Origin: Moniliella sp. 'wahieum'
Taxonomy: Eukaryota
Length of the DNA stretch: 64,000 bases
Direction of reading: 5' to 3'
NCBI GenBank assembly: GCA_003971905.1
Contig: RSEE01000075.1
Location: 1 to 64,000 of the forward strand
In this document: positions 1-37,257 of the stretch, piece by piece
How the letters are laid out: each line of letters begins with the position of its first letter
Numbering within the stretch: the stretch's first letter is position 1
The notes under the pieces: generated by a model
The model's input: only the letters and a program-made list of their open reading frames with translations
Databases searched by the model: none
Told to the model about the DNA's origin: nothing
Translations under genes and position numbers: made by a program

Positions 1-22
1 CCTAACCCTAACCCTAACCCTA
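1..22 (+). repeat. Telomeric repeat (CCCTAA)n / (TTAGGG)n, chromosome end
   Basis: CCTAACCCTAACCCTAACCCTA at the very start of the window; C-rich strand on +, as expected for a left end; followed by a telomere-linked helicase. Confidence 0.92.
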
Positions 23-41
23 GGGGAGGGCCGAGGGTAGA

Positions 42-90
42 TAGCGAGCTACCGAAGGGGAGAGAGTTATGCCGAGGCGATAGCTCGCTA
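42..90. repeat. Telomere-adjacent inverted repeat (13-bp arms, 1 mismatch)
   Basis: TAGCGAGCTACCG (42-54) vs CGATAGCTCGCTA (78-90), whose reverse complement is TAGCGAGCTATCG; 23-nt spacer. Confidence 0.75.
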
Positions 91-150
91 CGAAATCGTC
101 CGCTCTATGCAGCATATGCCCTCCGTTTCTCGATTGGACGCACCGTTGAC

Positions 151-216
151 AAGTTACACCCACCCATCCCTAACCCTACCCAACCCAACCCAACCCACCC
201 ACCCTCCGATGGCCTC
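151..216 (+). repeat. Direct repeat copy 1 (DR1) with degenerate telomeric core
   Basis: AAGTTACACCCACCCATCCCTAACCCTACCCAACCCAACCCAACCCACCCACCCTCCGATGGCCTC; hand alignment to 8286-8349 gives 5 mismatches and 2 single-base gaps. Confidence 0.9.
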
Positions 217-404
217 AGGACCGAGTACTACATCATGTTGGGCTATGCCCAAAGGACACCGAATATGGTGTCTGCCAGGTTGATCAGGAGGTGTGCTGAA
301 AAAAAATATTTTTGCGTTGGGTGTGTGGTGGTAGGTGCTGGGGACGGCCTTCCGGGTGGTGGTGGTGGTGGTGGCGGCGGCGGGCGGCGGCGGGCGGCGC
401 GTTG

Positions 405-435
405 CTATTTAATTAAGGCCGCCCTATTTAATTAA
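405..435. other. Tandem AT-rich boxes CTATTTAATTAA x2
   Basis: Exact 12-mers at 405-416 and 424-435, each containing palindromic TTAATTAA, within GGCGGC/CCGCC-rich flanks. Confidence 0.7.
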
Positions 436-545
436 TCCGCCGGCCGCCAACATCTGGTAGGCGGCCGTCACCGTTGGGTGGTCACCGGACGGCCGGCCAG
501 AGGAATCAAATCTGCCCAAATCCTTCCACGTAGAGGGCACGGAGG

Positions 546-2014
546 CTACCCAGGTACTTTCTGCTCCTCTGGCGCCCAATTCAGGAGCGGAATCTTCCCA
601 TCCATTTCGGAACATATGTCTAGAGTTTGAATGATGGTATGCATTGCTATGTTCCTATACATGCTGGATGTTGACGACGGGGAGCAGAGGCTTGATGGGG
701 AGCGCAGGGTTGGTGGCGAGCACAGGCTTGGGGGTGGAGAGCGTGGGTGGGGGGCGCATGCTTGGAGATGATGAGCAGAGGTTGGTGGCGAGCACAAGCT
801 TGGGGATGACCAGCACAGGCTTGGTGCCGAGCACAGGCTTGAAGATGGGGAGCACAGGCTTGGGGATGAGAAGCACAGGCTTGGTGGCGAGCACAATTTT
901 GGCGATGACGAGCACAGGCTTGGAGACGATGAGCACAGACTTGGAGATGATGAGCACCGGCTTGGTGGCGAGCACACGCTTGGGGAGAGAGCGCAGGCTT
1001 GGACATGATGAGCACAAGGTTGATGGCGAGCGCAAGCTTGGACGCAACAGAAAGAGCACGACGTTGAACTGGCCCATGGGCTACTCGAGTTTGAGCATGG
1101 CCCCGACGAGCGTTGGGATGGAGGCAATGACGAGGGAGAACGGAAGGATGAGAGGAAGAACGCTGGTACAAGAGCGGGTCAGATTGAGGCAGGGTGACAT
1201 GGGATGGAATGGAGTGGGATGGGATGGGATGCGTACCGATGCGCTGAACGACGTTGCACATGGCCCAGACGGCGGTTGGGATGAGCATCTCAAGCAGGGT
1301 GACAGCAGGGGCAGCCAAGCGAGTGCACATCGGCCGGCAAAGGTTCGGAAGGGGACGGCATGGCAAGCTGCACGGTCTGCTGGGACGGGGGCGAGGCAAG
1401 TCGGTACATGGCCGAAACGAGCTTCCACATGGCCAAGCCAAGCGCCCAGACAGCCAACGCAAGCGCGGCAGCGGTGGCAGCAGGCGAGGCATGCACAACG
1501 CCATGCACCATCCCATGCTTCCGCTTGCCTGACCCGACGGTGGCGATGGGCGATTGAATGGAGGTGGTGGCCGAGTCAATGGCGGAGATGGCCTGGGCGG
1601 CCGTGGGAGGTAGGAGCGCGGCGCTGGGGCGGGTCGGGAAGCAGGTGGACGTGGGAAAGAGCGCCAGGGTGGTGGGCAGTACCTGCAGAGACCCACAAGC
1701 TGGACAGAAGACACACAAGCGAGAGGGTCAGTGGAGGGCCGGGGTGTGGCAGATGAGGCGCGGGAAGGCCCCGGAGAGCGGAAACGGAGGCTCAAAACGG
1801 GGTGAAACGAGGCAACAGACCTTGGGGGGCGGGCAAAGCCAGCCGGGTTGGGGGGGGGCGTGGTAAGAAACCAACCGCATCGGTCGCCAGGCCAGGTCAT
1901 ACACCCGCCCCTGCCTGAACCAGTTAAAATCTGAATTGCACCGATGCATGGGGTGGGCTGTGCGCCGTCACATTGGCTCGGCCGCCACCGATTAGACCTA
2001 CGCGCTACCACCAC
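546..2014 (-). CDS. Hypothetical spliced repeat-containing protein (boundaries and frame uncertain)
   Basis: Canonical minus-strand intron 1236->1163 (GTACGC...CTGAC...CAG) joins ORF 647..2014 in frame to ORF 546..1127 (SSSPSLC repeats). Confidence 0.4.
681..1041 (+). repeat. Subtelomeric minisatellite of 18/21-bp units with core GAGCACAGGCTTG
   Basis: Repeated GAGCACAGGCTTGGTGGC and GAGCACAGGCTTGGGGATGAT variants; all frames across it give periodic peptides. Confidence 0.9.
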
Positions 2015-2557
2015 CTACTCGTCCAGCGCCACACGCCCGTTCTCCATCATTGTGCGATGCCTTCCCCTGCCCCTGTGCGCGGCTGGGCTGAAAGAGGACG
2101 CCTGGGGCACGCTACGCCACCACTCGTGCTCTGACTCGTCCCATATGGGGGGGCACCGACGCTGTTTGTTCGAACCGTGCGCCGTCCCGACCCAACCTGA
2201 GCCTTTTGTAAGTGGTCTGACCTCAATTCTGGACCCATCCAAAAGCGTATCGTCTGTCCTGCAACGCCTGGTTCCCGTTCATGAACAAAGTGTATCCAAT
2301 TGCCCATCTGGCGACAATCGGGGCTGCTGCTGGCTCTGTCAACAGCGACAAGTAACGCTATGACGGGCATCGCTCCCCGAAATCTTCTGTTCCATCTCCC
2401 TCCCGCGTACTCTATAGATAAAACCCTCGGTTGTGTGTTTGTGGGTAGCCTAGCGACCGGGATGATTTGCATTGTGAACAGACTCGATCCTCCGTTTTGG
2501 AACTCTGACCGGCTCATCCCGCCATGTGTGCTTTCTGTTCAAAGCACTGTGATCTTC

Positions 2558-5500
2558 TCAGTCCGACGAGATGGAGATCGTGTCGGGGGACTGGTGTCTG
2601 AAGTCGCTCCAATCATCGTCACTGTTGAAGCGGCTGTCGGGCGGACTGGTGATGCTGTAGGTGTCACTTGTTTCCAGAGAATGAGAATGGGAACGGAATT
2701 GCTGCTCCATGAAGTACAGGAAGCCAGCAACGAAGAGCGAATGTCTGGCAACCCTCTGACTCCCAAAAACCAAGGGCTCCACCAACTCATTCCAAGGCCA
2801 GTGTGTACGGTCACAGCTTTGGGTTGAAGCTTGAGCTCACGGGGAAACGATACCTTTAGCGGCAGGAGGTGGACACGCACCCGCGCCCAAATCCCGATAA
2901 AGTCTTTCGGCGACAAAGTCGACAGCGCCGCCAGCACGAGTGGAATCAATCGTACCCACTTCGAGGGCGAGGCCATTGCCTGATCGCAGGCGGTTTTGGG
3001 GGCTGTACCTTCCGGTGCCCCTGCACCCCTGCAGACCTGAACCTTGCTCAAGTCCCCGTTCAACATGGGAACGCGCAAAGGCCAAAAGCAGCCATAACAA
3101 GTTCCATGTTTCGGGGCACGGAGATGGCTCCAAGCGATGCAGGCCGGACCTTCCAATAAGGTAATCCGGGGGCAATCCCCAATCGCGTGGTCTAACCAAT
3201 CCGTACCTCCCGAACCAAAGTCTCGCGCGAAACAGAGTGGACAGCATGTAGATTCGGTCGTTTCTTCCGGGCGCACGACCATTTCATACTGGGTAACCAG
3301 ACGACCAAGTTCGGAGGGAGTGACCTTGCACATTTGCTTTTGACCCCCGGGGATCGGCACACGTGTTGTTGACAGTGGCTCTTTGGTGCGCGAACCTCCT
3401 TGTACGTCCTCAGCATCCCGAAGGATCCTTGTCTGCCGCCCAACGCCCTTTTGCCCATCACGAGGCAAAAGGGGCAGTTTCGACTGGCCTGAAATGCCTA
3501 CCCCAGCGCGCCCGTTGCGAACCGGGGAAAGGGAAGCGCCTCCCGGCAAACGGGGACGGTTCTGTCGAACGGTTCTCGGTGGCTGCTTTTGCTGTTGCTG
3601 CTCGTGCGTTGTACGCCTGCGCTTCACTCCCTCGTCATGGCCCGAAGAAGAAGTGGTGGATGGGCGAGCGCGCTTCAAGCGTTCGTGCTCCTTCTGCTGC
3701 GGCCTTGGCTGCTGGTCGGGAGAGGGAACAACCGGAAGCGCAGAGGCCCTGATGAATGATGTGCTTGCTGAACTGGGGCGTGCGGTTGCCGCCCTCGCCG
3801 AGCTACTGTCCAGAGGCTGTGGGAGTGGGGTAGTAAAACTCGCGTCCCCAACAGAGCAGCACGGGCGTTGCAGTCTGCATGCAGTACACAACCTTGCGCC
3901 CTCCACATTCTCACACCGAATCGCCTTGCCGTAGAGGCAGATGTGCACAGCCTCCATCAGGCAAGGCGCGTTTTGCAACCAATGCGCCACAGACCCCACG
4001 TACGTCCGACGCTCATCCGTGCTAGGCCGCTGAGCCTGGTACGCTACCTGGCTTTGGGAGGCAAGAATGATCATCTGACCTTGCTGCCTTGGGCCTCGCG
4101 CGGCCCGTCCGGCTGCTTGGATCAGATCCAGACCGGTAAAGGGAATGCCGACCCAGATCACCTTGTCACAGTCCGGCACATCCAAGGACACGGCCAGGGA
4201 ACTGGTCCCTACCAGAACAACCTCGTCCCCGCGTACGAATTTGGCAAGGTCTTCTGCTCCCTCCTCTTCCTCGGCACCGTGGCTTTCGCCTTCGTCCAAC
4301 GTGTCCGATGCAGGCCGGGGGGGGAGGGGGTAGGTAGTGCTAAAAAGCAAAAAACAAAAGGCAAAGGGTGGGGGTTAGAAAACAACCTTAAAGTCAAAAA
4401 GGGGGTAACAGAAGACGTACGGGTACTCCCAAGCGCTTTGCAATGCTCCTCGTTTGCTGGCGCGAATTGGTGATCACGATCGCGCGGGAGGGGCGGGTGG
4501 ATGAGAAGGGCTGTTGAGCCATCCCTCCCGCGCCTTCAACCGCTGTGACAGGACCCTTACCAAAGTTGCTTCAACCCCGCCGTTGTCTGGCTTTTGGTAG
4601 ACATACTGCACCTCCGGCCGGGGGGAACATGGATTGTGATGCGCGAAGTGAAGCGTCCCTTCTGGCGACAACATCCGCTCCAGCTCTTCGACGATCCCTC
4701 GCGGCGCAGTGGCAGACAGACCCAGGAGGCGTGTATGAGGGAGAAGATTCGAAAGATAGCAAAGATCCTCAAACTCGCGCCGAAAGTTGCGTTGCAAGGG
4801 AATGAGATGCGCCTCCTCCAGCACAATGCGCTCCAGACGACCGCGTTGGGCCAGCGCACGCAGCATGTCCACCAAGGGCTTGTGGGCGAGTTGACTGACT
4901 GTTGCGAGCACCACACGAGTGCCTGGCCGGAGCTGAGGAACCTGTGGGTAGCCACCCGCCAAAGTGCCCTGCCAGCACTCATACAGGATATTGTGCCGGG
5001 CCAAGCGTTGCTCAAAGTCGGCAATCATACTGTGCAACGGCACCACAATCAATTGTACCATCTCAGCCTCAGCAGTCATGGTCGGGATGAGCCACATGGC
5101 CGTCTTGCCTGCGCCCGTCGGCATACACACCATCGACGCCGCCCCGAGGGGTTGGAATAAGATGTGGTGAAGACAAAGAAGTTGTGTATCGGTCAAACCG
5201 CAGGTGCCATACACCCTAACGCCCAACTCGCGTGCTTTGGCCAAACGCGTCCAGGGTGTTGCGGGAAGCAGGCGAGCAGGCGTGTCTGGGCGGAAGCAGG
5301 TTGGAAGCGCAGGAAGGGAAAGCTGTAGCACATTTTGTTGCCAGTCCCGGCTTACGTGCTGCGCAATGGGAAGCATGGCCAAGTCGAGGTACCCAATCTG
5401 GTGGGCGCTTCGACCGTAGGCCAAAGTAGTGGTGCTTGATGAATGTCCTGCCTGGGCCGCCTGACCATGCCATGTCACCGTGCGCTCCCAATCCATCTGT

Positions 5501-8457
5501 TGGTAGCCCGCTGACCCACCCTGCTCACCGCCACCACATCCACCCGAATTGGTCGTAGGGTCCGCGACCCCTGCACATCTCCCAGTAAGGTCCGCGTGCG
5601 TTGCCCTTTGGATAGGGCTGTACAATATTGGCGCCATGCCCTCAAAGTCAAAACCGGAGCCACAAGCTCGTTGGGCCAGTTGGCACGCAGAGCACGGTTG
5701 AGGTGGACCGTCGTCAGCTTGCCCGATTGCGCAGTGACAAACAGTTGGGGTTGGCAAGCTGGCACGGCAGCCGGGTTGCGTGCCAGCTTACGACGCAGAA
5801 TGTCGGTAGCAGGCCGGACGAGGAGCAGGTAGGCTTTGAGGACAAGTGCGGTCGTAGGATCAGGAAAGCGGGCCGAGCGGAGGGCGGCTTCGGGGCTGCT
5901 GTACATGGACGTCTTGCTCCGCCGTAACACGACAAAGAGGTCGTTCCCGGCAATGTAGATGCTGCGCTCGCAGGATAGCTCATTGACGCAACGGACATCA
6001 AGCGTCTCCACGCCGCGTGGAGAGACCCCAGAGCATACATGGATAGCCAAAGCCAGCTGAATGAGGAACGCCTCCTCGAGCTGGAGGACAGACCGGCCAA
6101 GTACCAGCTGGTCGTCTTCGTCCATTTTCTGATTCGACAATGTGCGCGAGAACAGAGAAAATGTCGTGACCTTGTACCAGCCGGCGGTTCTCAGGCTCGC
6201 TCGCAAAAGAGTAGTTCTCGGCCTGGTTGTTGAGCGTGTCTTTCAGATGGTGACCGTGAAGGGAATGCCTTCTGAAGAAATGCCCATACTCTTGCTCGCG
6301 CCCAACGGTGAACAACTTGAGAAATGCACTCTCCAGTCGGGCAAGGACCGTACTTGCAAAAACATACAGTTCGTGGTGCGGAACCACGATCCCATTCGGC
6401 CACGTGGTCTGGTGCGACTGGTAGAAAAACAAGCTGTCGCTCTTCAGCTCCGAGCGGGCCCGGCTGGCATACTGCAGCACGCGCGCCAATTGACCAGCGA
6501 TCCCAGGCGAGTCGACCACAACATAGTTGTTCTGATAGTCGATCAGTTCCGCCCTGGCACGGATCGGGTCCCGCAATTCGGGCTGCCTAAAGGAGCGCAA
6601 ATGAAGCGAGGCAAAGGCCGACAACCGCAAGCACCACATTAACCCAGCCATGAACGGAGACACATGTCTAGGCGCCCTGAAAAGCAAGCAAGGCTGGCCA
6701 TGGCGTGGCCCTTGGGCCGGTAGCATTTCCGGTCCTTCGTCTTTCCATTCCTCGTCCCCGTCGGCATCCGTCGCATCCTCTTCTCCGTTCAGCCGGTCAT
6801 CCAGGTCGGCATTGTCCTGCTCCTCCATAATAGTGCCGATACCTGAAAGGGATACAGGCTTGTGTTGTTCATCTTGCCCCGCCGCCAAGGGGTCTGTGGT
6901 AGGCCGATGCCAAATGCCAAGGCACTTGCTAAAGGCAAAGAGCCAGACCGGGCCAACATCCTCCAGGGCAGGCATCCAGGGTTGCTTCACTACCACATCC
7001 AGCCAAATCCCAATCGATCTAAAGGACAGGTCCTTCTCAAGGAATTCTGCAGCCTCCTTCGGATCCGTAGGGTAAGTTTGGGATACCCTACCTAAGTGAA
7101 GACGTTTCAGGAAACTCTCGAGCGGGTTCTGGGTGGTTTCAAACCCAGCCTGGCGCAATGCATTTGCCAAGGCTTGCTCATGGCTTGCCAAAACCCTTGT
7201 GGCCAGAGGGGCAAGAGGATGCTCTTCGGCTGTACCCTGCGATTTACGAACGGCGACCAGTAACATGGTAAAAAGAAGACAGTCTGCGAGATGGGACGTG
7301 TAATTTTTGAGTGTTGAACAACCGACATCCAACCCGTTCTTTCGTAACTTGGCATCTGGGCCAACGAGCCAGGGAGTGGGCAGGAAATGCTGTAGCTTTT
7401 TGGTACTTTCCAGCAAACCGATGGCCCACGATAGCAGTATCGATGCTGCGTGTCGACGCACCCTCTGCCAGCAGTGAAGGTCGCTCGCCTCAGCCAATTC
7501 CATCAAAGGAACACCTTGGAACAGCCGAGTAACGTGCCACATCCGGGGCCAAGAACCCATTAGGTGCTCTTCATCCACGACACGCGTCAAAGGATCAGCT
7601 CCTGGCATGTGTGGCTCCATAGTTCCCGGAGCGGCTTCTTCGACCTCAAACAAATACCTCAGAGGCCCTCGTCTGATCCGTCCAAGGTCGTTTGCATGCG
7701 GAAGGTCCTGCTCACCCACACGGGCCGGACGGGGGGCTGCTGGACGAGCGGGCGGAGTCTGGCCGGGACCCGGTGGAGCATCAACCTCTTTGGCGGTCAC
7801 CTCAGCGGATTCCGAAGCACCTGTACCCGCACCCCGACGCGCCCCGCGGCCGCTGCTTGTAGACTCCACCGTGCGAACGCCATTTTCAAAGGGTTCGAGA
7901 GCATTCTGTTCCTCATTGTCCTCCTGCTGGTTCCTTGTGGCCGCATCGTTCGTAGGACTCGCCAGCCCAACCGTCGTGGCGGGGTTAGAAAAACCCAGGC
8001 AACTACCATCGGCCCTAAGGATGGCACGCTTGATCCCGTATGCCACATTTTGCGTCGTCATGCGCACGCTGACGTATCGATGGCCGAAAGAACGTTGATG
8101 GTGTTCCTGATTCTCCCGGTAACCCAACACCCGGAAACACTTCCTGCACACAAGGTGCTTATCGCGGACAGGCACCCTATCCACAGGCTCCGTAAGAGGC
8201 AAAGGAAACATATCCTCCGAAGGTGTGCGTGGTTGCATGTTTTCGGGCATGGCACGCAACACGGAGCGGGCCTCTTTGGGTTCAAAAGTTACACCCACCA
8301 TCCCTAACCCTACCCACCCCGACCCACAACACCCACCTCCGATGGCCTCGACGATAGCTCGTGTACCACGTTGGCCCAGGCCGCGCGCCTCGCCGGGTTC
8401 ATCAAAGTCCCCAAGACATGGCAGGGACTCGTCGTTGCGGCCGAGCTGCTGGAGCAC
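2558..8457 (-). CDS. Telomere-linked RecQ-like SF2 helicase (TLH-type) with N-terminal Zn finger and tyrosine-recombinase-like domain; frameshifted in this assembly
   Basis: Joined from ORFs 5998..8457, 5475..6206, 4474..5757 and 2539..4350 plus intron 4420->4340 (GTACGT..CTAAC..TAG). Motifs: CRKC..HH..H; SGVSPRGVE; GHSSSTTTLAY; Walker A MPTGAGKT; LEEAH; LSAT; QAAGRAAR; RQC-like C..C..CTAC. Transcribed towards the telomere. Confidence 0.88.
8286..8349 (+). repeat. Direct repeat copy 2 (DR2) with interstitial telomeric core CCCTAACCCTA
   Basis: AAGTTACACCCACCATCCCTAACCCTACCCACCCCGACCCACAACACCCACCTCCGATGGCCTC, matching 151-216. Confidence 0.9.
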
Positions 8458-10391
8458 CAGTTCGGATGGACCATGGCGGGCGAACGGATAAGCAAAGGGG
8501 TGGATCCACCTCCCTTTAGCACGGCTGCGCCCAACGTCTCTCTCGAATCACAGCTGGCTGATTTCATCAGTCCCTATCCCTGGAATCCGGATCCACGCTT
8601 GCCCGAAGACCACGTTTCCAGCGTTTTTCTCAACACCCCGACCAGCGTCTTTCACCCGAGAGAGGATGGTTTGATCGATGTGGGCGTGCTCCCCTCGTTT
8701 TATTGCCCAAGCTCCGTTGCCTTGCCGCCGCTGCCGCTGCCCAGCCCCTGGACATCTTACCAGTATGTATTGCGGGTCCATCGAGAGGGGAACACGGTGC
8801 TCTTTTTTGGACTTGGAGTTGGGAGGTCGATGATGGTACGTTGCCCCCCTTGTTGGGTGGCCCTCCCTTTGGCTCTGCTACAGTGTTCTAACGCTAACTT
8901 CCTTGTGGTACCGACACCGACAAGACTGGGTGGATACTGGAGAGAAACGCCGTATCCCCTTCAACATGTCGACTGTTTCTTTTGAGTCAGAGAACGCACC
9001 GGAGGTGGTACGCACCATGTGTTTGTGTTGTGCAGAACTTACCTACCCACAATACCGACGCATGCTGGACCAAATCGTGATGTTTTCCGCGGTCTGTTAC
9101 CCGAAGGTGTACCACCTGTATGTCCGACTGTTTAGTATCTGCGTCATACCAAACAAATGTATTAACCCTCCCTTCAGCTCTGGAAAGTACCGCACCAACC
9201 TATCCACATTTAACGTTGAGACTGGGGTCGAGGACAAAGGTGTGGTGACAGATCATCCCTGGTTCAAGAACAAGGTGCCGTACGACGCCCGTCCAGACCT
9301 GAAGAGAGAACTAAAGTATGTCGAATGCATCCTCTGGGGTTTTGGCCGCTAACTCTATCGCAGCTCCGAAGTGTTCAACTGGAAACTGTTTGCGGATGAC
9401 AAGTACGTGTACCTCATTTCGCAGGGCGACCTTATCGCCATGTCACCCGAAACGGGACAAACCGTGTGGTCCTTTAAAGACATGTGGAAGGATGGGAACG
9501 CTAGCCATTTGGACAATGCCGCTCATTTTATCCTCGATCCTGAGCGTATGGATGTCGATGGTCATTCGATGGAACGCGTAGTGGGAGATGGTGTACGTAC
9601 CCCCCCGCCCACCTCGTTTCTTCTTGTTTCTTCTTTTAACAATAGCTGAGCTGACTCGGGATGGAGGTAGCGACCCCATCGATACAGCATTGGCATTGGG
9701 ACGGGAAGCATGGCTGTGCAAGAAGTGTTTTTCGACGCGACTACGGAAACGCTTCTGATCAGTGTGTTCCAAGCCGGGATCCAGCACCCATTTCCGATGG
9801 ACGGCTTCCACGCTCTTTGGCTCATCAAGGATTAAAAAAATGATCGTGTCGGAACGTGTGAGCTGGATGGCCTTTCTGCAGCTGCAGGAGTCCACGTTCC
9901 CTCACCACTGTGGCCATTCCGTGGGCAACGGGCGAATGCTCTTGCCACAGATCAACTACGGCTGGCGATGGAACAGGAAGGGCAAGTCTACCCGGGAGGA
10001 ATCCCACGCGGGTCCAAGCCCGATGGCTTGCTTGTGCCATTTGTCATTGACTGGAAACACGCGCGGAAGCCCGAGGAGATCCGGCTGTGCCGGCTGGTCG
10101 CCGGGCCCGTCTGGCGCTCCCTCTCGCCCGCCGGCTACCACAACATTGTCACCCGGGTTTCCAGCAAGCGCCAGCGGGGCGGGCACGAAGCCTTGCTCTG
10201 GGCCAGCGTGCTCGGAGCAGCTGCGTCTCAAGTTCAATACGTTGACCGCCACCGGCGCGACGTTGATCCTGCTGGACGAGGAGAGCCAGGCGCACCGCGA
10301 TCGGGTCCTAGACGACGGCGGGCTGCAAGTCGGTGCGTTCCTCGTGTGGGACTGGGGCCAGCAGGCCGAGCGCTGGTTGGAGGAGCACTAG
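8342..10391 (+). CDS. Hypothetical protein with PQQ-like beta-propeller blade motif (multi-exon, frameshifted)
   Basis: Chain of protein-like ORFs 8371..8985, 8903..9352, 9371..9649 and 9968../9762..10391; DDKYVYLISQGDLIAMSPETGQTVWSF resembles a propeller blade; ends in FLVWDW..stop at 10391. Confidence 0.5.
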
Positions 10392-10609
10392 CCTGGCGCG
10401 CCGCGAGGCGCGGCAGAACCACTCTCTAGATCCGTGCCGATCGGGGCGCCACAAAGTCAGTGTTTAACGTTTAACTATGTTGTGCCAAAGCTGCGGTGGG
10501 GTAAATAGACCTGGCTGTGGTCCGTGCGCACCGCCCCGTTAAGCAGGTGGGCAATATGTAGCCGCCAAAGTACACACCCGCCCGAAGGACGCAGGCGACA
10601 CGGTGCGTC

Positions 10610-11293
10610 TTGCTCGCCTTGCTCGACCGCCTGCCGCGCGAGTTGGCGCAGCACGTGCTCTCGCGTGGCGTGCTGTCCGTCGCGGACGTCGCGCGTGTGC
10701 GGCGACATGCAGGTGTTGGCGCGCGCACGCACGCGCCCTCGCCGCCCGGTGGCAGCTGATCCCGTCACGTCGCATGGCGCTCGTCGATGCGGTGGCCTCC
10801 TGGAACGACCAGTACGACTTGGCGCTCCAGTCGTTGTTGGTCCTTACGCCTGCTGCGCCCTTCGTGCCGCCCAGCCACGCGCGAGCGCGCGAACGAGGGT
10901 GGTACGACGCCATTCTGTTTCTGCGCGTGCTGTGGTGCAGGGCCGCGGCCGTGCGCTGACGGGGGGGAGCCGGTTGGGTTTGGCTTTGCGCTGTTGCGGC
11001 GGGTGGCGCCGTGGGCGTATGAGGACAGCGACGTGGAGCAACAACAAGACGGCTATGAAGAAGACGAAGAGCAAGGGGCGGAGGAGGAGGAGGAAGGACC
11101 GCACTTTGGTGATCGAACGCACCGATGGCCATCGTCGGTGGATCCTGCGCCCCCGATGCTCACTCGCTCCTCTGGCCCGACGTTTAGTCCATACCCTTCC
11201 GGTAGCATTTTCGAGCAGCCGAACCGTACGTTTGTTCACACTTCCTGTTCATCGTTGGTACTAGGCCTACTTACTTATTCCAAGGTTGGATAA
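10610..11293 (+). CDS. F-box domain protein (5' end not resolved, frameshifted)
   Basis: LLDRLPRELAQHVLSRGVLSVADVARV / ATCRCWRA at ~10619-10725, read across one frameshift, fits the F-box consensus; acidic tail in ORF 10787..11293. Confidence 0.6.
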
Positions 11294-11444
11294 GTGATGG
11301 AACTACGGCGCGGCCCATCTCGCGCGGGGATCGCCACCTCACCCCGGCGACTATGCGTCGATCAGGTGGATCATGTAAAAAAGGGGAATGCGATTACTAC
11401 AAGAACGCGGTCGAGGAGGGAGAATGTATCTCTAAATGGCTGGC

Positions 11445-14400
11445 TTACTGCCTCTGGCGCTGCAATCGGCGGTGGCGCAGATCAGCCGCCAGAAGAATAG
11501 TGTCCACCATTGACTGACCCACCGGGTCCCGGTTCCAACTTGACCGGTTGGCCCAAACCAGGTCAAAGCACGCCGCTCGCAACGACTCGAGTCCTCGACA
11601 CTAACTCATGCAGGTAATCAATGTGGCGCTGCAGTGCAGTTGTCCACCAAATAGGGAGACAAGATGAGATGGTGCGTAGGCTCATCGAGGGATGCATCGG
11701 TCGTCGGTGCTGGCGACAAGAGGGTAGTCAAGCGGGTCCGTTTCGAAGGCGATAGTTCATCTGCCCTGCCGTCTTCGTGGATCCGTTTGGACCCGTTCCG
11801 TTGTGGGGAGCCAACAGTATCTGTGCCAATGGGGTCAGCCACAATGGAAGGCGCCTCCGCGTCGTCGGCCACAGCCCCGCTCCCGGTGCTGGTGGGGGCG
11901 CAGGAGTGGCATCTGGAGGTTTCGTCTTCTCCGATTCCTTTTGCCTCTTTTGCCTCTCTTGCTTTTCCTTTTCTTGGGATTGTTCGGCGGCCTCACGCCG
12001 GGCTACGCGGACAGCCAACCGCTCACACTCGACCCGGAAGGCAGGTTCGACAAATTGGTCGAGGAGGATGTTGGCCATGTTGAGCATCTGGTGGGCCTTG
12101 AGTGCCCGCTCTCCATCCACCACTTCGGCCGCCTCTGCATTGTGCGCAATCCGTTGCAGATCCTCAACAAAGTTCGACACACAGAGGTAGTGGTCATAGT
12201 ACAGTTTCTTTGCATCCGCTCCAGCGTAGTCGTGTAGAGCACGGTCCGCTGCCATTAATGGTATCGGCCTCCTCCTCGTCAGCTGCTTGTGCTGCCGCCG
12301 TTACCTCGTCCACCGCTTCGGCCTCGTCCGCACCTGCTTCTGCCATTGTCACCTCGGGAGCAGCGTCCGTCTCCCCGGCCGGTACACGTTCCATCGCGTC
12401 ACCAGCAACGAATGTGGCGGCTTCCCCGGTCGGAGAGCGCGCAATGACGGTGCCCTCGGAGGGGGAGGCATGGCCATTCGCCCCCGCTGCCTCTCCACCC
12501 GAAGCAGAGATGGATCCCGGAGTCGGGTTGGTCAGTTGGTGAATCGAGATACGCTTGGTCAGTGTGGTCTGTTGTTTGCGCATCCTCTCCGCCTCCTTAG
12601 CGGCAGCACGAGCCCGGCGGTTTTTCTCGATCTCCTCGGGGGACTTCTCGTAGGGAAGGTCAAGCGTGTATTGCCCCTTTTGGCGCGTCGAGGGGAAGTT
12701 GGAGGTAAGGTAGGTGAGATTGTACTCCTCCTGTCAGAACGGGGTCAGCGGGGGATCAGAACCCAGCGCCAGGACACAAAAGCCGGCACAGAGCGCGGGG
12801 AAGAATACGCACCCAAACGTTTTTGGTAAAGACTTTGAACTTTTTGCGCAGCTCAGCCAGGACAGGCCCCAGCTTGAATTTGAGTTGCTCCAACAAGCGT
12901 TCGTCCGAAGCGATTTGTTCCTGTAACTCTTCCTTGGTGGGTTGACGGGGCGGCAAGGCCGGTGCCAAGGGAAGGTCGGGAAGGACGCGGCGTACTTTCG
13001 GTACACCTCCAGGGAAGAACGGTGGAGGCTGGGCCAAGTACGAGAGGAGAGGCTTGAAGAAGGCTCGACGCTGGTCTTGCGAGGGGGGGTTGAGCAAAAT
13101 TCCCGGTTTAGCAAACCATGCTTGCACCTCAGGGTCCAGTTCGTCCCGGGGACAATCGGCCACCCCGAGGAGCAAAACCGGTTCGTCGGTCGCCAAGCCA
13201 TCGAGAAGCGAACGCATCAGCGTGATCGTCGACCGCGGGATGGTATCAATCGTCCACGACTGAAGCGAGGGGGCAAAGAGCACAGCAGGTTTATGCCGCC
13301 GTGCTTCAACAAAGAGCTGGACCAAGGCTGTGTCGGGGGGGCGGCTGGCGTCGCCGAGCAAGGTTGGCAAGTCCAAGCTGGAAACATGGTACCCTTCCAG
13401 GTTGTAGAGCAACGCTCGTGCGAGCACATTTTGTCCATTCCCGGCTGGACCATGGATCAGCATCCGGGGCGATACACCCGTAGCGACGAAAACTGTTGCA
13501 GCAGAACTTCGTGGTTGAACGTGTCCCCGCCCAAGTGGGGCGATGGGTCTTGCCACATCGCCTCCTCCAAGGCAGTGCGCTGCTTGGCGGGGGGCAAGAG
13601 ACTGTCCAGCAGGTCCTGTGCTTCGGCCTCTGCGTCGGCGAGGAGTGGTTTGAGGTGTTCCGGCAGAGGCGTGGCTTGGGACGAGGCGGAACGTGCGGAA
13701 GAAGGAACAATCTTATTGATGGCCAGCATAAAGTCTTTCGGCGTTGCCTGGACAGTCTCGGGACGAAGGAGGAGGCGCGGTGGTGGTGTTAGATTTGGGG
13801 GTAGGTGCGCTGGACGGCGTTGAGCGCCGCCTCGGTGCAGAGCGCGCGCAGATCCGCACCGCCGTAGCCCTTGGTGAGCTGGGCAAGACGGTGGAGCATG
13901 GCGGGGTCGGGGGCGGGGTCCCACTGGCGCGTGTGGATCCGCAAGATCGACTCGCGCGCCGGCAGGGTGGGGAGGGGGAAATAGAATTCGCGGTCGAACC
14001 GCCCTGGACGGCGAAGGGCGGGGTCGACCGAGTCGGGTCGGTTGGTCGCCCCAATGACAACCACTTGGCCTCGGCCGTCCATGCCGTCCATGAGGGCGAG
14101 GAGGGTGGACACGATCGACGCATGGATCTGGTCCTGCTTGCTGCTCCGCACAGGCGCAAGGCCATCGATCTCATCGAAAAAGATAATCGCCGGCTGGGAG
14201 CGCTTGGCCTCCTCAAACAGGAGGCGCAGCTGTCGCTCCGCTTCGCCCACCCACTTGGACAGCACGTCTGCACCCTTGCGCATAAAGAAGGCCACCTTCT
14301 GCCCTTGGCCCTCGGAGCTGCGGGGGCGGCAGCGCCGTCGGCGGCGGGGCGCGTGGAAGCGGGAGCGGGCGCACTGGCCGTGCCCGATACGCTGGCCGCC

Positions 14401-16041
14401 AGCGCCCGCGCCACCAACGTCTTGCCCGTCCCGGGGGGGCCATGGAAGAGGACGCCGCGCGGCGGAGTGATGTGGAAGCGCTGGTAGAGCTCAGGATAGA
14501 GGAGCGGCAGGGTGACCATCTCCTTGAGCTGCTGCAGCGTGCTGTCCAAGCCTCCGACCGAGTCAAAGTCGACTTGCATGTTCGTCCCAAGCGGATCAAT
14601 GTCCGCCATCGGGTCGCCACCCGTCTTGATTCGACCCATCGTGTCGGCCGCACCATGGCCCGACAGGTCGCCTTGCCCGCCGCCTGGCGCCGCATCTCCC
14701 GCGCCCAGCAAGCCGCCCGAGATGCCCCCGGGCACTCGCAGCCCGGCCCCGGGGAGTTTACCCTTGCCCCGTCCCCGCGCCGTCTTGGCATAATCGTCGC
14801 TGTCCGACGACTGGGTGCGCTCGCCAAAGGCGCGCGCGAGGTCTTTGCCCGTCATGGACTTGGGCAATCGGTCCCAGGTCGTCGCCCCGCCAAACGGACG
14901 GTCCCCGCCGCCGCGTCGTGCACCCGGATTGGCCCACCCTGGACCATTCAGGCCCGTGTAGGGGCGTGCGCGGCGCGGGCTGCCGCCGCTGGGCGCAGGA
15001 GCAGCGGGGGTGGTATAGTTGACCTCTTTTCGCGCACGCAGACGCATCCCCTGGCTCTCCGGTTCCTCTTCTTCGGAAGCAGACGGACCGAGTGAAGATC
15101 CACTGGCCGCGTCGCTACTGACAAACTCGTCTTCGTCCGACAAGCGAGCCTTGCGTTTGGTTGTCTTACCTCGGGACTTGGTTCGACTGCGCAGGCGATG
15201 GCCAGCAACCACGGGTCCATCCCCCTCCTCCTTCTCGTGTTCCTCGGCGCTGGTGGCGCGGCTGTACCGAGGGCCTTGATACTGGGCGCTTTTGCTTTTC
15301 AGCGCCGCCTTGCGCGTGCGCGCCAGTTCTTGGACACGCGTCTGTGCCGTGCTTGTCCTTCGGGGCTGGTCTTGATCGTCCGAGGTACGCTGCGAGCTGC
15401 GACGGCGCGTACGAACTCGTCGGGCCGGTACTGCCTCCTCCTCCTCCGTGTCATTCACGTCCTTTCACGCATGCTGGTCAAGTTGCGCGTGGAGCGACGA
15501 GGGCGGTGAGAAGGCAGGTCCTCATTGTGCATCGTCGCGTCCTCCGCATGGCCGAGGCCACTGGAATTGAACGCTTGCGGGGGGCGAGAGGTGCGCCCAC
15601 TTCTCGTGGTGTGAATAACCGGCGCCACTTCGTCCTCGTCCTCATCATCCTCCCCATCACGATCAGTATCACCATCCGCATCTTCATCCTCTTCGGCGTC
15701 TGCGTCGAACTCGTCCGGGTTGGCAAGTCTGTGGGTGGCAATGCGAGAAGCAGCGCGGGACGAGCGGCGTGCGGGGACAGGTTCGTACTCTTTTTGCGCA
15801 TCTGGATCGGCGGGGGGGGAGGCGCGATCGGGCCGGGCTCGAGAGAGACCTGGGCCCGAGCTTGGTTGGCGCCAGAGGAGAAGGCACTGATGCGGATGCG
15901 CCGGATACGTGGTGGGGGCGCAGACGCCGGGCTGCTCTCGCCCGGGAAGGGAGGGGGGGAGGAAGGGTGTGAGCCAGGGTGGATGTAGGCATGAGGCTCG
16001 GCATCGGCCAAGGCGGCCGCGGCGCGAGTTCTTCGCGTCAT
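11445..16041 (-). CDS. YTA7: Yta7/ATAD2-family AAA+ ATPase histone chaperone with degenerate bromodomain
   Basis: VDFDSVGGL..LKEMVTLPLLYPE..PPRGVLFHGPPGTGKT; FFMRKGADVLSKWVGEAERQL; FFDEIDG; PALRRPGRFDREFYF; second AAA domain HGPAGNGQ; C-terminal LESLRAACFDLVWANRSSWNRD with stop at 11445. Confidence 0.95.
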
Positions 16042-17963
16042 GGGAGAGGGAGAGGGAGAGGGAGAGGCAGGGTGGGCGGGCCTGCGGCGGGGGAGGGGGA
16101 GAAGAGAGAAGCCAGGGGAGGTGGGATCGGCAGTGGAGGTGGTGGTGGTGGGAATGGCGGTGGTGGTGGTGGTGGTGGTGGTAGCGGTGATGGTGGTGGG
16201 AGCGGTGCTGCGGGCAGAACACGGCCGCGTCGTGTGATGTCGGCTGGTTAGCCAGTGTTGGTTGGTTGGAATGCGCTGGGCTGCAACGCGGGGCTTACGT
16301 CAGCCATCGGGACAGCGCTGGCGGCGAGTGGCTGATAATAATCTTAGGAGGGGGGTAGGCAAAGTGGTGTACAACCACCACCACCACCACCAGCTGGCAC
16401 CCCAGACAGCCAGCCTCCCACTGAGCATTCTTCTTCGTTCTTCTTCGTCCCGCCGCCACAAAACACACCGCCAATTCAAGACAGATGAATCACAGCAAGC
16501 ATGTCATTACAGAGGGTGTGACTGCACCACCGATGTTTTTTTGCTCTTCGGTGTAGTTTCTTTCTCCACACCGTTCACCGCCCTCCTACTCTCCCGCCTC
16601 AGATGCTCAACCCGTGCATCCAACATCCAACACTCAGGGATCTTCGATGCGACCCCCCATCCTCACATGTCACAGGCCTCCCTGCTCGGTGCATCAAGGG
16701 ACGGCGACCGTCGCATCCGCTATTTACACCGGTGATTTTGTCCAAGCAGGCTTCATCCATGCTTTAGCCTGTGCAAGTAAGCAGGGACTGGGATTTGCAT
16801 CCGTGTTACCCGGAGGACTTGGTACTTATGTGCATCATAATCCCAGTAACCGTATTGGAGAGACCATGTATGAGATCTGAGATGCTCAACGCTTCACAGT
16901 TAACCCCGCCCGTCCAGCTGGGGTGCAAAAAGCGCCTGCGTGTTGGGCAAACCCCGGCTGCAGTTCCGGTTATGGCGAGGCACATTTTGCGGCTGCGGTT
17001 ATAATAATAACGGCTGTGGGTCTGCAACTCCAGGCGATGGCGCAGCGGTTCCTACGCCATTGACCCTCCGGCGTATAGGAGTTGTGCCCCCCCTTCCTCT
17101 GCTCCATCAGGGCCATGACCTCGTTATTCCCTCTCGTCCCCGCCCCCCAGAACAGGGGTAACCGCTACCCTGCCTCTTCGATTAGCCACCTACACTCCTG
17201 CTGTGTGGGGGGCAACACGGGTGGTCTCATCGATGGGTGAGTGAATTGCATACGTAGATACTAGTATCCCTTCGTACTCCCCTCCCTCCCATATATACTG
17301 AACGCGGTGCTACTTATATGAACACAGACCTTTGCGCTGGAGCTATCCGGGCCAGACCTGCACTCTGTCCCCTTGACGCCACACGACCTCTAATGTTGCG
17401 CTGTAGTAACTTGACCCAATGTGAGTGCAACATGAGAGGGATAGGCTCCTCCGCGCGCTGTGTTGGGATCTCAGATGCAGGATCATCGAGATCATCGAAT
17501 AATGTTTTTTTGCTCCGCATTCTTGTCCCGCGCGGGTGCTGGACCCTGGTATGGGCGTTGTTCGACAGCGCCGCCGCAGGCCATGCGCATTCCTTTATTG
17601 GAATTACGGTGTGCTGTTGTTATATATATAGCGCCCGTGTGTGTTCTTGTTCACCTCCGTCTTCGCTCTTGTCATCACCTCCTTCTCCTGGTTCCCCGCC
17701 AGCCCCCAGCCGTTTGCTTGTCCGCTATTTTTCCAGTTACGTTTCCTCGAGTCACTCTCGGTCCTCTCTGTGAGGCTTGGCCAAACAGATGAGAGACTAC
17801 TAGGGTTCTCCCCAGTATAATCCGGTTGGCTGACTGTGGGGTTGTTCTGTCTTCGCTGTGACTTGTATTCATATATAGCCACACCCCAAACACCGATTCG
17901 GTCTATTCCGCCTTATACTCCGTTTGAGATCGATCGCAAGCGCTGTTCTGCCTGTCTTGCACT

Positions 17964-36490: not shown

Positions 36491-36611
36491 GGTGATGGGG
36501 ATGGGGGTGGGGATGGCGATGGCGATGGCGATGGTGATGGCGATGGCGATGGCGATGGCGATGGCGATGGGGGTGGGGGTGGTGATGGCGATGGGGTTGG
36601 CGATGGCGATG
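36488..36611 (+). repeat. Microsatellite (GGCGAT/GGTGAT)n
   Basis: Read directly; a similar tract lies at 42640-42698. Confidence 0.85.
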
Positions 36612-37257
36612 TGAATGAAAATGGGAATGGCCGTGGCGGAGGCAGACGAGCAGACAGGACGAGAAAGGGCTGAGACTCGAGGGCGGATGGCGAGTACGCT
36701 CCTCCACCGACGTCATCGCTCCTCGTGTGGATTCCAACATTTCAACACGCGGGGGGATGAGAGGGGGTTGGCATGCGACATGTGATGTGGCGTGTGATAG
36801 GGGTGGACATGGGATGTGGCGTGTGCTAGGCCATGTGATACCGCAAGCGCGGGGTAGCATCATTTAATGCCCGGTCGATGGCACGCACAAGCCCCGCCGC
36901 TGCCGTTCTCTCTCTCCCCTGCAGCGCCCCTGCAGCGCCCACGCAGCGGCTGTGGACGCCGGCGGGAGGCACTGCTTGTAGTGCAGGACGCTGCCGCACC
37001 CGCCCTGTGTGCGCGCGGCGTTATGCATGCCGGTGGGCCCCCGTGCAGCGCTGGTTTGCCAACGCACAAGCAAACACAGCATACACACGACGCATGTACG
37101 CCCCCCTGCGTGGTGGGTGCTGCTTGCTGCGGCTGGCGTTCTTTTGTGCGCTTCTCCCACCCCCACCACCTCCTCCCCTCTCCTCCCCCCCTCTCCTCCC
37201 CTCTCACACCACCTTCTCTTGCCGTCGCGCCAACTCCTAGTCCGTCTGTTGCCCAGC

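What the first reader, a model, noticed from the sequence alone, without database searches (positions are those of the whole stretch)
151..8349. 8.1-kb unit bounded by telomere-cored direct repeats: candidate excisable, telomere-targeted element
Seen: 151-216 and 8286-8349 match with 5 mismatches and 2 gaps. Similarity has a sharp left boundary at AAGTTACACCC and decays weakly to the right (ATCATGTTGGGCTATGCC vs ACCACGTTGGCCCAGGCC). Both copies contain CCCTAACCCTA, and together they bracket the recombinase-helicase gene. Known: tyrosine-recombinase elements integrate via circles and leave directly repeated attL/attR cores; yeast Y-prime helicase elements form tandem arrays and circles. Inference: DR1 x DR2 recombination would release a ~8135-bp circle carrying its own recombinase and helicase, which could re-insert at telomere-like sites on other ends.
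Basis: partly seen in the sequence, partly recalled or inferred. Interest (0 to 1): 0.85.

Follow-up and report, generated by a model that had tools for sequence, protein, structure and literature searches.

The report
Telomere-linked helicase unit with repeat borders
The end of this fungal chromosome carries one 8.1-kb telomere-linked helicase element bordered by two copies of a 66-base telomere-like module, a known kind of subtelomere; its helicase protein also carries a domain that looks like a DNA-cutting-and-rejoining recombinase.

Summary
151-216 and 8286-8349 match at 59 of 66 columns (5 mismatches, 2 gaps; blastn E 2.4e-16). This is the only real similarity between the unit and the other 55 kb. 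Both copies hold CCCTAACCCTA, and they bracket a minus-strand RecQ-type telomere-linked helicase (TLH) gene. The window starts with (CCCTAA)3.7, so this is a chromosome end.

All four flanks of the repeat are unrelated. That topology fits reciprocal recombination across the module.

TLH regions flanked by telomere repeats are already described in Fusarium oxysporum (6.1-13.1 kb, single or in arrays). Yeast Y' elements are similar. So this is a new member of a known kind.

No circle, empty site or second copy could be tested. The gene cannot be read in one frame and lacks one zinc finger that relatives have.

The "recombinase" label gets fold-level support. The domain upstream of the helicase keeps an R-K-R-H-Y set, invariant or nearly so across 34 relatives. 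Its model (pLDDT 83) matches tyrosine recombinases first, but weakly (best E 8.7e-3). I found no paper making that link.

The parts
1..22 (+). Terminal telomere repeats, (CCTAAC)3.7, C-rich strand reading inward: left end of a chromosome
23..150 (.). 128-base 'cap' between the telomere and DR1. It is not a truncated TLH 5' end. It holds a 10-11 nt inverted repeat at about 41-90.
   Evidence: No similarity to 7800-8285. Centroid stem; the fold of the whole stretch is no better than shuffles (z +0.98).
151..216 (+). DR1: boundary module. It reads AAGTTACA, then about 46 nt of degenerate C-strand telomere tract (CCCTAACCCTA, then CCCAA and CCCA units), then TCCGATGGCCTC. It may start at 145.
   Evidence: (period-5 ACCCA array 158-201)
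217..2538 (-). Interval from the TLH 3' end to DR1. It holds (GGT)n and (GGCGGCGGCG)n at 355-399, two CTATTTAATTAA at 405-436, a compound tandem repeat at 679-1042, and a proline-rich open frame at 647-2014(-) with no family match.
2539..8250 (-). [quoted passage not shown] First plausible ATG at 8250-8248. One C2H2 at 8148-8080. Recombinase-like 'TLH domain' at about 6125-5340, with R 6017-6015, E 6008-6006, K 5915-5913, R 5633-5631, H 5445-5443, Y 5418-5416. DEAD at about 5187-4696. GTACGT...TAG intron candidate at 4420-4340. Helicase_C at about 4272-4096. Stop at 2539-2541. Frame path against relative P0001: -1, -2, -1.
8286..8349 (+). DR2: second copy of the boundary module, 35 bases upstream of the ATG at 8250. 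It lies inside the upstream open extension of the TLH frame, and an in-frame ATG at 8301-8299 lies within it. It may start at 8280.
8350..12000 (.). Sequence proximal to DR2. No TLH or module similarity and no C2H2 frame; ordinary fungal genes follow further in.

Best explanation
The first 8.4 kb of the window is the end of a fungal chromosome. It carries one telomere-linked-helicase region of the kind called TLHcr in Fusarium oxysporum and Y' in budding yeast.

The two repeats are copies of one 66-72 base boundary module. The module is a degenerate telomere tract in the same orientation as the real telomere, held between fixed non-telomeric edges.

Because all four flanks differ, the 8.1-kb TLH segment lies between two copies of a module that otherwise would sit 128 bases from the telomere. 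There are two ways to reach that arrangement. Either a circular copy recombined with that module, or an eroded end primed from the module on another TLH-bearing end and copied it outward (break-induced replication).

I take the joint to be made by recombination guided by the telomere-like homology. The host recombination machinery is the default engine. The TLH protein (C2H2 finger, recombinase/topoisomerase-IB-like domain, RecQ helicase) is a plausible helper.

Shown here: the repeat, its boundaries, the gene's domains, and the fold and residue conservation. Inferred: the recombination history, any present mobility, and any catalytic activity. This particular copy is probably not autonomous.
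For: - Chromosome end: telomere repeats at 1-22.
- Repeat: E 2.45e-16, the only real unit-to-rest similarity. Discrete on both sides with four unrelated flanks.
- Telomere-like core, same orientation as the telomere.
- Gene: DEAD and Helicase_C, RecQ/BLM best solved relatives. Colinear tblastn match to relative P0001 from 8283 to 4519. One C2H2 finger near the start.
- The architecture matches what the papers give for TLH proteins: C2H2 motifs, a roughly 250-residue TLH domain upstream of the helicase, RecQ motifs (passages).
- Known anatomy: F. oxysporum TLHcrs are 6139-13114 bp. [quoted passage not shown]
- Telomere-like repeats end 181 bp upstream of the M. oryzae TLH start codon. Yeast Y' is a 5-6 kb helicase element in arrays of up to four (passages).
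- Short subterminal telomere tracts are proposed to drive tandem amplification by attrition-induced repair, rolling circle or circle templates (passage).
- TLH is present in 14 copies in one Botrytis cinerea strain and absent from two others (passage).
Against: - Plain telomere-guided models predict variable pure-repeat junctions. They do not predict a module with fixed non-telomeric edges shared by both copies.
- The distal copy is not the terminal telomere; it lies 128 bases inside it.
- No tandem array, truncated second unit or solo module is present in 64 kb.
- Multi-copy status at other chromosome ends could not be checked.
- Membership in the TLH family rests on architecture and position.
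- A conserved catalytic set in the TLH domain argues that the protein does more than help.
Confidence: 0.55

Rival explanations
1. The unit is an autonomous, Crypton-like DNA element. Its own tyrosine-recombinase domain recombines DR1 with DR2 (attL and attR), releases an 8135-bp circle, and reinserts it at telomere-like sites on other chromosome ends. The RecQ helicase would assist strand exchange or branch migration.
For: - The topology of a repeat between four unrelated flanks is the classic signature of conservative site-specific integration.
- The TLH domain keeps G, R, E, N, R, K, R, Q, H, Y invariant in 14 sequences at 19-24% identity to the first. In 34 sequences E, K, the second R and Y stay invariant, and the first R and the H are at 90% or more.
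- The AlphaFold model has pLDDT 83.1 and pTM 0.78.
- Foldseek against PDB: the first 32 rows listed (ranks 1-39) are all tyrosine recombinases, best E 8.7e-3, prob 0.99. With the earlier poorer model, 15 of the first 15 were recombinases or topoisomerase IB.
- The viral library gives the same picture, best E 1.3e-2.
- The nearest named clusters by language-model features are PF00589, NDC10_II, DUF3435 and ResT/TelK, at 0.84-0.86.
- hhalign places R38, E41 and K74 on Cre positions 173, 176 and 201.
- The window's copy keeps all six residues.
- 53 of 163 held proteins carry the domain, always beside the helicase where both are present; 14 of those 53 built the model.
Against: - No fold match reaches E 0.001.
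- Atlas scores are under 0.9, so they are a lead only.
- Pfam, PHROGs and PDB sequence searches find nothing.
- hhalign against Cre (E 0.13-0.15) and lambda Int (E 0.23) is not significant.
- The histidine of the HxxR box is not conserved. The set matches the topoisomerase-IB pentad as well as it matches a recombinase (the pentad is recalled).
- No inverted repeat of 8 nt or more lies in or around either repeat.
- The gene cannot be read in one frame and lacks one of two fingers.
- F. oxysporum reports telomere repeats at the borders of truncated units too (passage), which a fixed att site would not give.
- No circle, empty site or second copy was seen or could be sought.
Confidence: 0.2
2. 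The module is a cis-acting chromatin or promoter element, not a recombination joint. It would be a binding site for a telomere-repeat-binding factor that sets silencing or insulation on both sides of TLH. It would make TLH expression depend on telomere state, as proposed for yeast X elements and the M. oryzae HAR-CDEF array. Its two copies would then be kept for function.
For: - DR2 lies 35 bases upstream of the first plausible ATG, in promoter position.
- The M. oryzae telomere-like HAR-CDEF array ends 181 bp from the TLH start codon, and the authors suggest a role in propagating silencing. TLH genes of S. pombe are expressed on telomere crisis (passages).
- The two copies are 89% identical, including the irregular repeats.
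Against: - A regulatory role does not explain why exactly two copies bracket the unit with unrelated flanks.
- It does not exclude the joint model; both can be true.
- No protein-binding data exist, and the factor's motif is recalled, not tested.
Confidence: 0.12
3. DR1, or the whole distal arrangement, is an assembly artefact at a contig end, or the repeat is a chance match of two C-rich low-complexity tracts.
For: - Chromosome ends are hard to assemble.
- The TLH frame breaks lie near short homopolymer runs, which could mean consensus errors.
Against: - E 2.45e-16.
- The non-repetitive edges AAGTTACA and TCCGATGGCCTC are shared exactly.
- 0 of 100 shuffles give even one CCCTAACCCTA.
- The contig ends in proper telomere repeats.
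Confidence: 0.05

Closest known systems
TLH-containing regions (TLHcr) of Fusarium oxysporum (bioRxiv 10.1101/2024.02.27.582403; passages and section 14 read)
   Same: A 6.1-13.1 kb unit with one TLH gene at the chromosome end, with telomere repeats on both sides (terminal and interstitial), single or in arrays. The protein has C2H2 motifs, a TLH domain and RecQ motifs.
   Different: - Here the border is a 66-72 base module with fixed non-telomeric edges and only 1.8 canonical repeats.
- The distal copy lies 128 bases inside the terminal telomere, not at it.
- There is a single unit and no array.
- The preprint's figures and supplements could not be seen, so its junction sequences were not compared.
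Y' elements of Saccharomyces cerevisiae (passage in PMC1635262; circles and interstitial TG tracts recalled)
   Same: A helicase-encoding 5-6 kb subtelomeric element, not at all ends, with tandem arrays. Telomere-like tracts lie at unit borders. Movement is by recombination, including circles (recalled: Horowitz and Haber 1985).
   Different: The Y' helicase is highly diverged. No sequence comparison was made here, and Y' borders are plain TG1-3 tracts (recalled).
TLH region I of Magnaporthe oryzae with helicase-associated repeats (PMC1635262, passages)
   Same: TLH points its 3' end at the telomere. Tandem repeat blocks lie between TLH and the telomere (compare 679-1042 here). Telomere-like motifs lie just upstream of the start codon (181 bp there, 35 bases here). 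Many copies are truncated or frameshifted.
   Different: M. oryzae has long AT-rich repeat arrays rather than one short module on each side. That strain had no extended interstitial telomere arrays.
Cryptons, tyrosine-recombinase DNA transposons of fungi (Goodwin et al. 2003; only the citation was seen; properties recalled)
   Same: A eukaryotic DNA element with a tyrosine-recombinase-type catalytic set. Integration is presumed to go through a circle and leaves short direct repeats.
   Different: Cryptons have no RecQ helicase and no telomere link (recalled). No sequence similarity was tested or found, and Pfam recombinase models do not match the TLH domain.
MoTeR telomeric retrotransposon arrays of M. 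oryzae (PMC8381367, passages)
   Same: Telomere-targeted units with telomere-like sequence at one end, separated by short interstitial telomere tracts. Amplification follows telomere failure.
   Different: MoTeRs encode a reverse transcriptase. Here there is none, only a helicase and a recombinase-like domain.

Membership tests
[quoted passage not shown] | RecQ-type superfamily-2 helicase core | tested here: met
   DEAD 1.7e-12 and Helicase_C 5.8e-8. Best solved relatives are BLM, RECQ5, RECQ1 and RecQ, at 3.6e-9 and weaker.
[quoted passage not shown] | Conserved domain of about 250 residues directly upstream of the helicase ('TLH domain') | tested here: inconclusive
   A conserved domain of about 240 residues sits there in the window and in 53 of 163 held relatives. 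That it equals the published TLH domain is inferred from position and size (passage). No named TLH protein was available to align.
[quoted passage not shown] | Two N-terminal C2H2 zinc-binding motifs | tested here: not met
   Only one motif lies in the TLH frame, at 8148-8080. None lies upstream of DR2. Relatives P0001 and P0019 have two. U. maydis TLH is reported to lack them (passage), so the family allows exceptions.
[quoted passage not shown] | Location next to the terminal telomere repeats | tested here: met
   Telomere repeats at 1-22. The gene's stop at 2539 is about 2.5 kb from them, and TLH is the first gene from the end.
TLHcr / Y'-like subtelomeric unit | Telomere or telomere-like repeats on both sides of the unit | tested here: met
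   DR1 plus the terminal repeats on the distal side and DR2 on the proximal side; CCCTAACCCTA in both.
TLHcr / Y'-like subtelomeric unit | Same unit present at several chromosome ends, or in tandem arrays | not testable with these tools
   Only one window was available. No second copy lies within it, and the cap is not a truncated second unit. No eukaryotic contig collection was on hand.
Tyrosine recombinase / type IB topoisomerase superfamily (for the TLH domain) | Catalytic-domain fold | tested here: inconclusive
   Model pLDDT 83.1. The first 32 PDB rows listed are all tyrosine recombinases, best E 8.7e-3, prob 0.99, TM 0.40/0.34. BFVD best E is 1.3e-2. There were 0 matches at E 0.001 or better.
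Tyrosine recombinase / type IB topoisomerase superfamily (for the TLH domain) | Catalytic residues in order: Arg, Lys, (His-x-x-)Arg, His/Trp, Tyr | tested here: met
   R38, K74, R172, H222 and Y231 are invariant in 14 sequences. K, the second R and Y are invariant, and the first R and the H are at 90% or more, in 34 sequences. All are present in the window. The His of HxxR is not conserved. The assignment of roles is by order and by the Cre alignment, not by experiment.
Tyrosine recombinase / type IB topoisomerase superfamily (for the TLH domain) | Match to the family's sequence profiles | tested here: not met
   No PF00589 or related hit at E up to 10 for 14 members. PHROGs gave none, and the PDB sequence profile gave none relevant. 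hhalign against Cre gave E 0.13-0.15 and against lambda Int E 0.23.
Site-specific integrative element (attL / attR) | Direct repeats with unrelated flanks on all four sides | tested here: met
Site-specific integrative element (attL / attR) | Dyad-symmetric recombinase-binding arms around a crossover core | tested here: not met
   No inverted repeat of 8 nt or more (seed 6) within 120-250 or 8255-8385.
Site-specific integrative element (attL / attR) | Circular form, empty sites, dependence on the recombinase | not testable with these tools
   This needs reads, other strains or ends, and bench work.

The most novel reading that the evidence does not exclude
Telomere-linked helicase regions as a whole are a family of selfish DNA elements that encode their own tyrosine-recombinase/topoisomerase-IB-type enzyme, fused to a RecQ helicase. 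The 'TLH domain', described as TLH-specific and of unknown role, would be that enzyme. The telomere-like border modules seen here would be its recombination sites. This would explain why TLH genes sit at chromosome ends, why they are flanked by telomere repeats, why they form arrays, and why they come and go between strains. A related form of the idea: the enzyme resolves junctions at telomere loops to make circles for telomerase-independent telomere maintenance.
Probability: 0.2. Interest if true: 0.85.

Novelty: new member of a known kind. Interest (0 to 1): 0.55.

Why it matters
TLH genes have been known at fungal chromosome ends since about 1998-2002. The papers I read still call their function unknown (passages). 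If the border module is a true recombination joint, this end gives a compact, sequence-defined substrate to test how such units move between ends. The substrate is a 66-base module, a 128-base cap and one unit.

If the TLH domain is a working DNA breaking-and-rejoining enzyme, the family becomes directly testable. One can mutate the tyrosine, look for covalent DNA adducts, and test recombination or junction resolution on module-bearing DNA. That would change how subtelomere dynamics, strain-to-strain gain and loss of TLH, and telomerase-independent survival are read in fungi.

If neither holds, this is one more ordinary TLH subtelomere.

Tried and rejected
1. The cap 23-150 as a truncated second TLH unit (tandem array): rejected, no similarity to 7800-8285.
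2. Rightward extension of the repeat: not above chance.
3. A missing first zinc finger or first exon upstream of DR2, or elsewhere in the window: none found. tblastn with the N-termini of P0001 and P0019 gave only chance hits, E 0.5 or worse. The C2H2 pattern scan of 1-12000 gave one relevant site.
4. Word-indexed protein search for longer relatives of the 437-aa frame: none at E 0.001 among 8000 candidates. The tool itself calls this weak evidence, and the exhaustive search then found 1263.
5. Searches with the domain profile for longer and near-length proteins: 8 and 7 hits. None had a helpful name or a recombinase Pfam domain.
7. Sequence-level link of the TLH domain to recombinases: Pfam, PHROGs, PDB sequences, and hhalign against P1 Cre and lambda Int were all negative or not significant.
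8. RNA families and tRNA genes as possible targets: none in 1-10000 and 1-12000.
9. Hairpin in the cap plus DR1: the fold is no better than shuffles.
10. Inverted repeats at the repeats: none.
11. Literature link between TLH and tyrosine recombinase or Crypton: one search gave 0 papers. Searches gave papers that I checked by passages and found unrelated. Searches gave one listing each, not opened. Of the 58 papers, 40 titles were listed and none suggests the link. Subscription papers are outside the library, including Rehmeyer et al. 2009, which defined the TLH domain.
12. Complex prediction was not used; no binding claim is made.
Full report
WHAT IS THERE

The window begins with CCTAACCCTAACCCTAACCCTA, which is 3.7 units of the C-rich telomere strand. 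Position 1 is therefore the left end of a chromosome. G+C is about 55-70% throughout.

Further in lie ordinary fungal-type genes:
- AAA ATPase pieces at 12756-15464
- a TEA/ATTS factor at 22103-23620
- a PDR-type ABC piece at 39966-40907
- a sugar transporter at 52682-53782

That the organism is a fungus is inferred from these genes, from the TTAGGG-type telomere and from the gene described below. No tool named the organism.

THE REPEAT

blastn gives 89.4% identity over 66 columns, E 2.45e-16. It is the top hit of 1-8285 against 8286-64000. Everything below it is (GGT)n low complexity.

Motif counts back this up:
- CCCTAACCCTA occurs four times in the window, twice in the terminal telomere and once in each repeat. 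None of 100 shuffles had any.
- AAGTTACACCCACC occurs only at the two repeats.
- CCTCCGATGGCCTC occurs exactly only at the two repeats.

Each copy reads AAGTTACA, then about 46 bases of degenerate C-strand telomere tract, then TCCGATGGCCTC. In DR1 the tract is CCCTAACCCTA followed by CCCAA and CCCA units, which Tandem Repeats Finder reports as a period-5 array at 158-201. The tract has the same orientation as the real telomere.

The two copies share their irregularities. They therefore descend from one sequence and are not two independent telomere additions (inference).

BOUNDARIES

Left: the match could run six bases further (GTTGAC / GTTCAA, 4 of 6) and then stops. The 128 bases between the telomere and DR1 show no similarity to the 486 bases left of DR2. 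378 of 500 shuffles and 374 of 500 other windows score at least as high. The cap is therefore not the stump of a second, truncated unit.

25 of 300 shuffles, 38 of 300 other windows and 116 of 1000 random 44-mers do as well.

The module is thus discrete, and all four flanks are unrelated. No inverted repeat of 8 bases or more lies in or around either copy. There is no tRNA gene or Rfam family nearby.

THE GENE

Between the repeats a large gene runs on the minus strand.

Helicase: Pfam finds DEAD (1.7e-12) and Helicase_C (5.8e-8). The best solved relatives are BLM, RECQ5, RECQ1 and bacterial RecQ.

Relatives: an exhaustive HMMER search with the 437-residue frame found 1263 proteins at E 0.001 or better. 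One is a close relative, P0001 (1373 aa, 41% identity, E 7.9e-57).

Frame path: tblastn lays P0001 colinearly on 8283-6187 (frame -1), 6095-5607 (frame -2) and 5487-4519 (frame -1). A further frame change precedes a clear GTACGT...TAG intron candidate at 4420-4340 (read). Two GT...AG stretches, 6177-6129 (49 nt) and 5576-5521 (56 nt), would restore the frame if spliced. However, the first also reads as protein similar to P0001. I cannot say whether the copy is intact, decayed, or carries consensus errors.

Start and fingers: the first plausible ATG is at 8250-8248, 35 bases from DR2. An in-frame ATG also lies inside DR2, at 8301-8299. Only one C2H2 motif lies in the frame, at 8148-8080. Relatives P0001 and P0019 have two, and DR2 sits where the first hundred or so codons of P0001 would be. 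No finger-encoding frame lies beyond DR2. The copy may therefore be shortened at its 5' end, exactly at the module.

Family: the architecture is C2H2, a conserved domain, then a RecQ core. With the position as first gene from the telomere, this is what the papers describe for telomere-linked helicases (passages).

THE 'RECOMBINASE'

Pfam sees none. The roughly 240 residues just upstream of the helicase are nevertheless conserved.

Distribution: a profile built from 14 segments finds the domain in 53 of the 163 proteins held. Those 14 match by construction.

Conserved residues:
- In 14 sequences at 19-24% identity to the first, the invariant columns are G34, R38, E41, N49, R55, K74, R172, Q219, H222 and Y231.
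- In 34 sequences, G, E, R55, K, the second catalytic R, Q and Y stay invariant. The first R and the H are at 90% or more.
- The order Arg, Lys, Arg, His, Tyr is the catalytic set shared by tyrosine recombinases and type IB topoisomerases (recalled). The histidine of the recombinases' HxxR box is not conserved.
- The window's copy keeps all six: R 6017-6015, E 6008-6006, K 5915-5913, R 5633-5631, H 5445-5443, Y 5418-5416.

Fold:
- A first AlphaFold model was mediocre (pLDDT 68.5). Its first 15 PDB matches were all Cre, XerA, XerH, an integrase or topoisomerase I, with best E 0.08.
- A second model, of a shorter family member with 34 sequences, reached pLDDT 83.1 and pTM 0.78.
- Its first 32 listed PDB rows (ranks 1-39) are all tyrosine recombinases: XerA, a staphylococcal integrase, Cre, lambda Int, XerH, Tn1549 Int and XerD. 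Best E is 8.7e-3, probability 0.99, TM 0.40/0.34.
- The viral library agrees, with best E 1.3e-2.
- No match reaches E 0.001.

Other leads:
- Language-model features point to clusters carrying PF00589, NDC10_II, DUF3435 and ResT/TelK at 0.84-0.86. That is below the 0.9 the tool asks for, so it is a lead only.
- hhalign against P1 Cre is not significant (E 0.13-0.15). It does place R38, E41 and K74 on Cre positions 173, 176 and 201. That those are catalytic positions of Cre is recalled.
- Lambda Int gave nothing. Sequence profiles of Pfam, PHROGs and PDB gave nothing.

My reading: the fold assignment is probable, about 0.8, but not proven. Activity is untested.

That this domain is the published 'TLH domain' is inferred from its place and size. 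No named TLH protein was available.

WHAT IS KNOWN

[quoted passage not shown] The authors add that this holds for full-length and truncated units, and they attribute it to rearrangements (passage).
- In M. oryzae, a repeat array with telomere-like motifs ends 181 bp from the TLH start codon. Tandem repeats fill the interval to the telomere, and only 4 of 11 copies look intact. The authors compare the region with yeast X and Y' (passages).
- Rahnama et al. propose that short subterminal telomere tracts allow tandem amplification by attrition-induced repair, rolling circle or circle templates (passage).
- In B. cinerea, TLH is present in 14 copies in one strain and absent in two (passage).

A helicase unit bracketed by telomere-like tracts is therefore a known kind, and 8.1 kb is within its size range.

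What differs here:
- The border has fixed non-telomeric edges.
- The distal copy lies 128 bases inside the telomere.
- All four flanks differ.

HOW IT MOST LIKELY WORKS

The arrangement cap-module-TLH-module-unique is what results in either of two ways. A circle carrying one module may recombine with a module lying 128 bases from a telomere. Or an end eroded into its module may invade the inner module of a TLH-bearing end and copy outward to that end's telomere. Both routes use the module as the joint.

I put 0.55 on this general reading, with host homologous or break-induced recombination as the default engine.

I give it 0.2.
- For it: the four-flank topology and a catalytic set kept across the family.
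- Against it: no dyad arms at the site, a copy that may be broken and shortened, telomere repeats at truncated borders in Fusarium, and the lack of any circle, empty site or second copy.

A purely regulatory role for the module gets 0.12. Artefact or chance gets 0.05.

NOVELTY AND SCORE

The finding as given is a new member of a known kind.

The by-product is the more interesting part: the TLH-specific domain looks like a DNA breaking-and-rejoining enzyme. I found no paper that says so.
- One search gave 0 papers.
- Searches gave papers that proved unrelated when I checked passages.
- Searches gave one listing each, which I did not open.
- One search found 58 papers; 40 titles were listed and none suggests the link.

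The library lacks most subscription papers, including the 2009 paper that defined the domain. The preprints' supplements were closed. The claim 'not in print' is therefore weak.

Interest 0.55.

WHAT STAYED OPEN

- Other chromosome ends, other strains, reads, and any eukaryotic contigs.
- Whether the gene is spliced or broken.

Noticed in passing
window 405-436 (with 355-399): Two copies of CTATTTAATTAA lie 17 bases apart. They are AT-rich palindromes in a 60% G+C stretch, right after (GGT)6.7 and (GGCGGCGGCG)2.7. They could be a protein-binding or origin-like site in the TLH-to-telomere interval.
   Followed up: no
window 679-1042: A compound tandem repeat with periods 18, 21, 39, 60 and 81 lies between the TLH stop and DR1. 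It overlaps a proline-rich open frame at 647-2014(-) with no family match. Its position resembles the helicase-associated repeats of M. oryzae (passage).
   Followed up: partly
window 41-90: A 10-11 nt inverted repeat (TAGCGAGCTA / TAGCTCGCTA) with a loop of about 30 nt lies in the 128-base cap. It forms the only stem in the centroid fold. The fold of the whole stretch is no better than shuffles.
   Followed up: partly
window 8148-8080 and 8286-8349: The TLH frame has one C2H2 motif where relatives P0001 and P0019 have two. DR2 occupies the place of the missing N-terminal part. An in-frame ATG lies inside DR2 at 8301-8299.
   Followed up: yes
window 6177-6129, 5576-5521, 4520-4340: The frame path against P0001 is -1, -2, -1. 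Two GT...AG stretches of 49 and 56 nt would restore the frame together. A third shift lies near 4520, before a GTACGT...TAG intron candidate at 4420-4340 (read). Whether these are introns, decay or consensus error is not resolved.
   Followed up: partly
proteins P0019 and P0007 (relatives, not in the window): The N-terminal zinc-finger region of some relatives matches Pfam OrsD (PF12013), at 7.7e-17 and 2.4e-6. This family is named after a secondary-metabolite cluster protein. The window's own N-terminal frame had no Pfam hit.
   Followed up: no
window 16098-16446, 29400-29933, 36262-36651, 37182-37524: These stretches give tblastx and blastn hits to 297-461 and 1406-1777 of the unit. They look like shared low-complexity Gly/Pro-rich or GGT/GGC repeat coding sequence, not TLH homology.
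   Followed up: no
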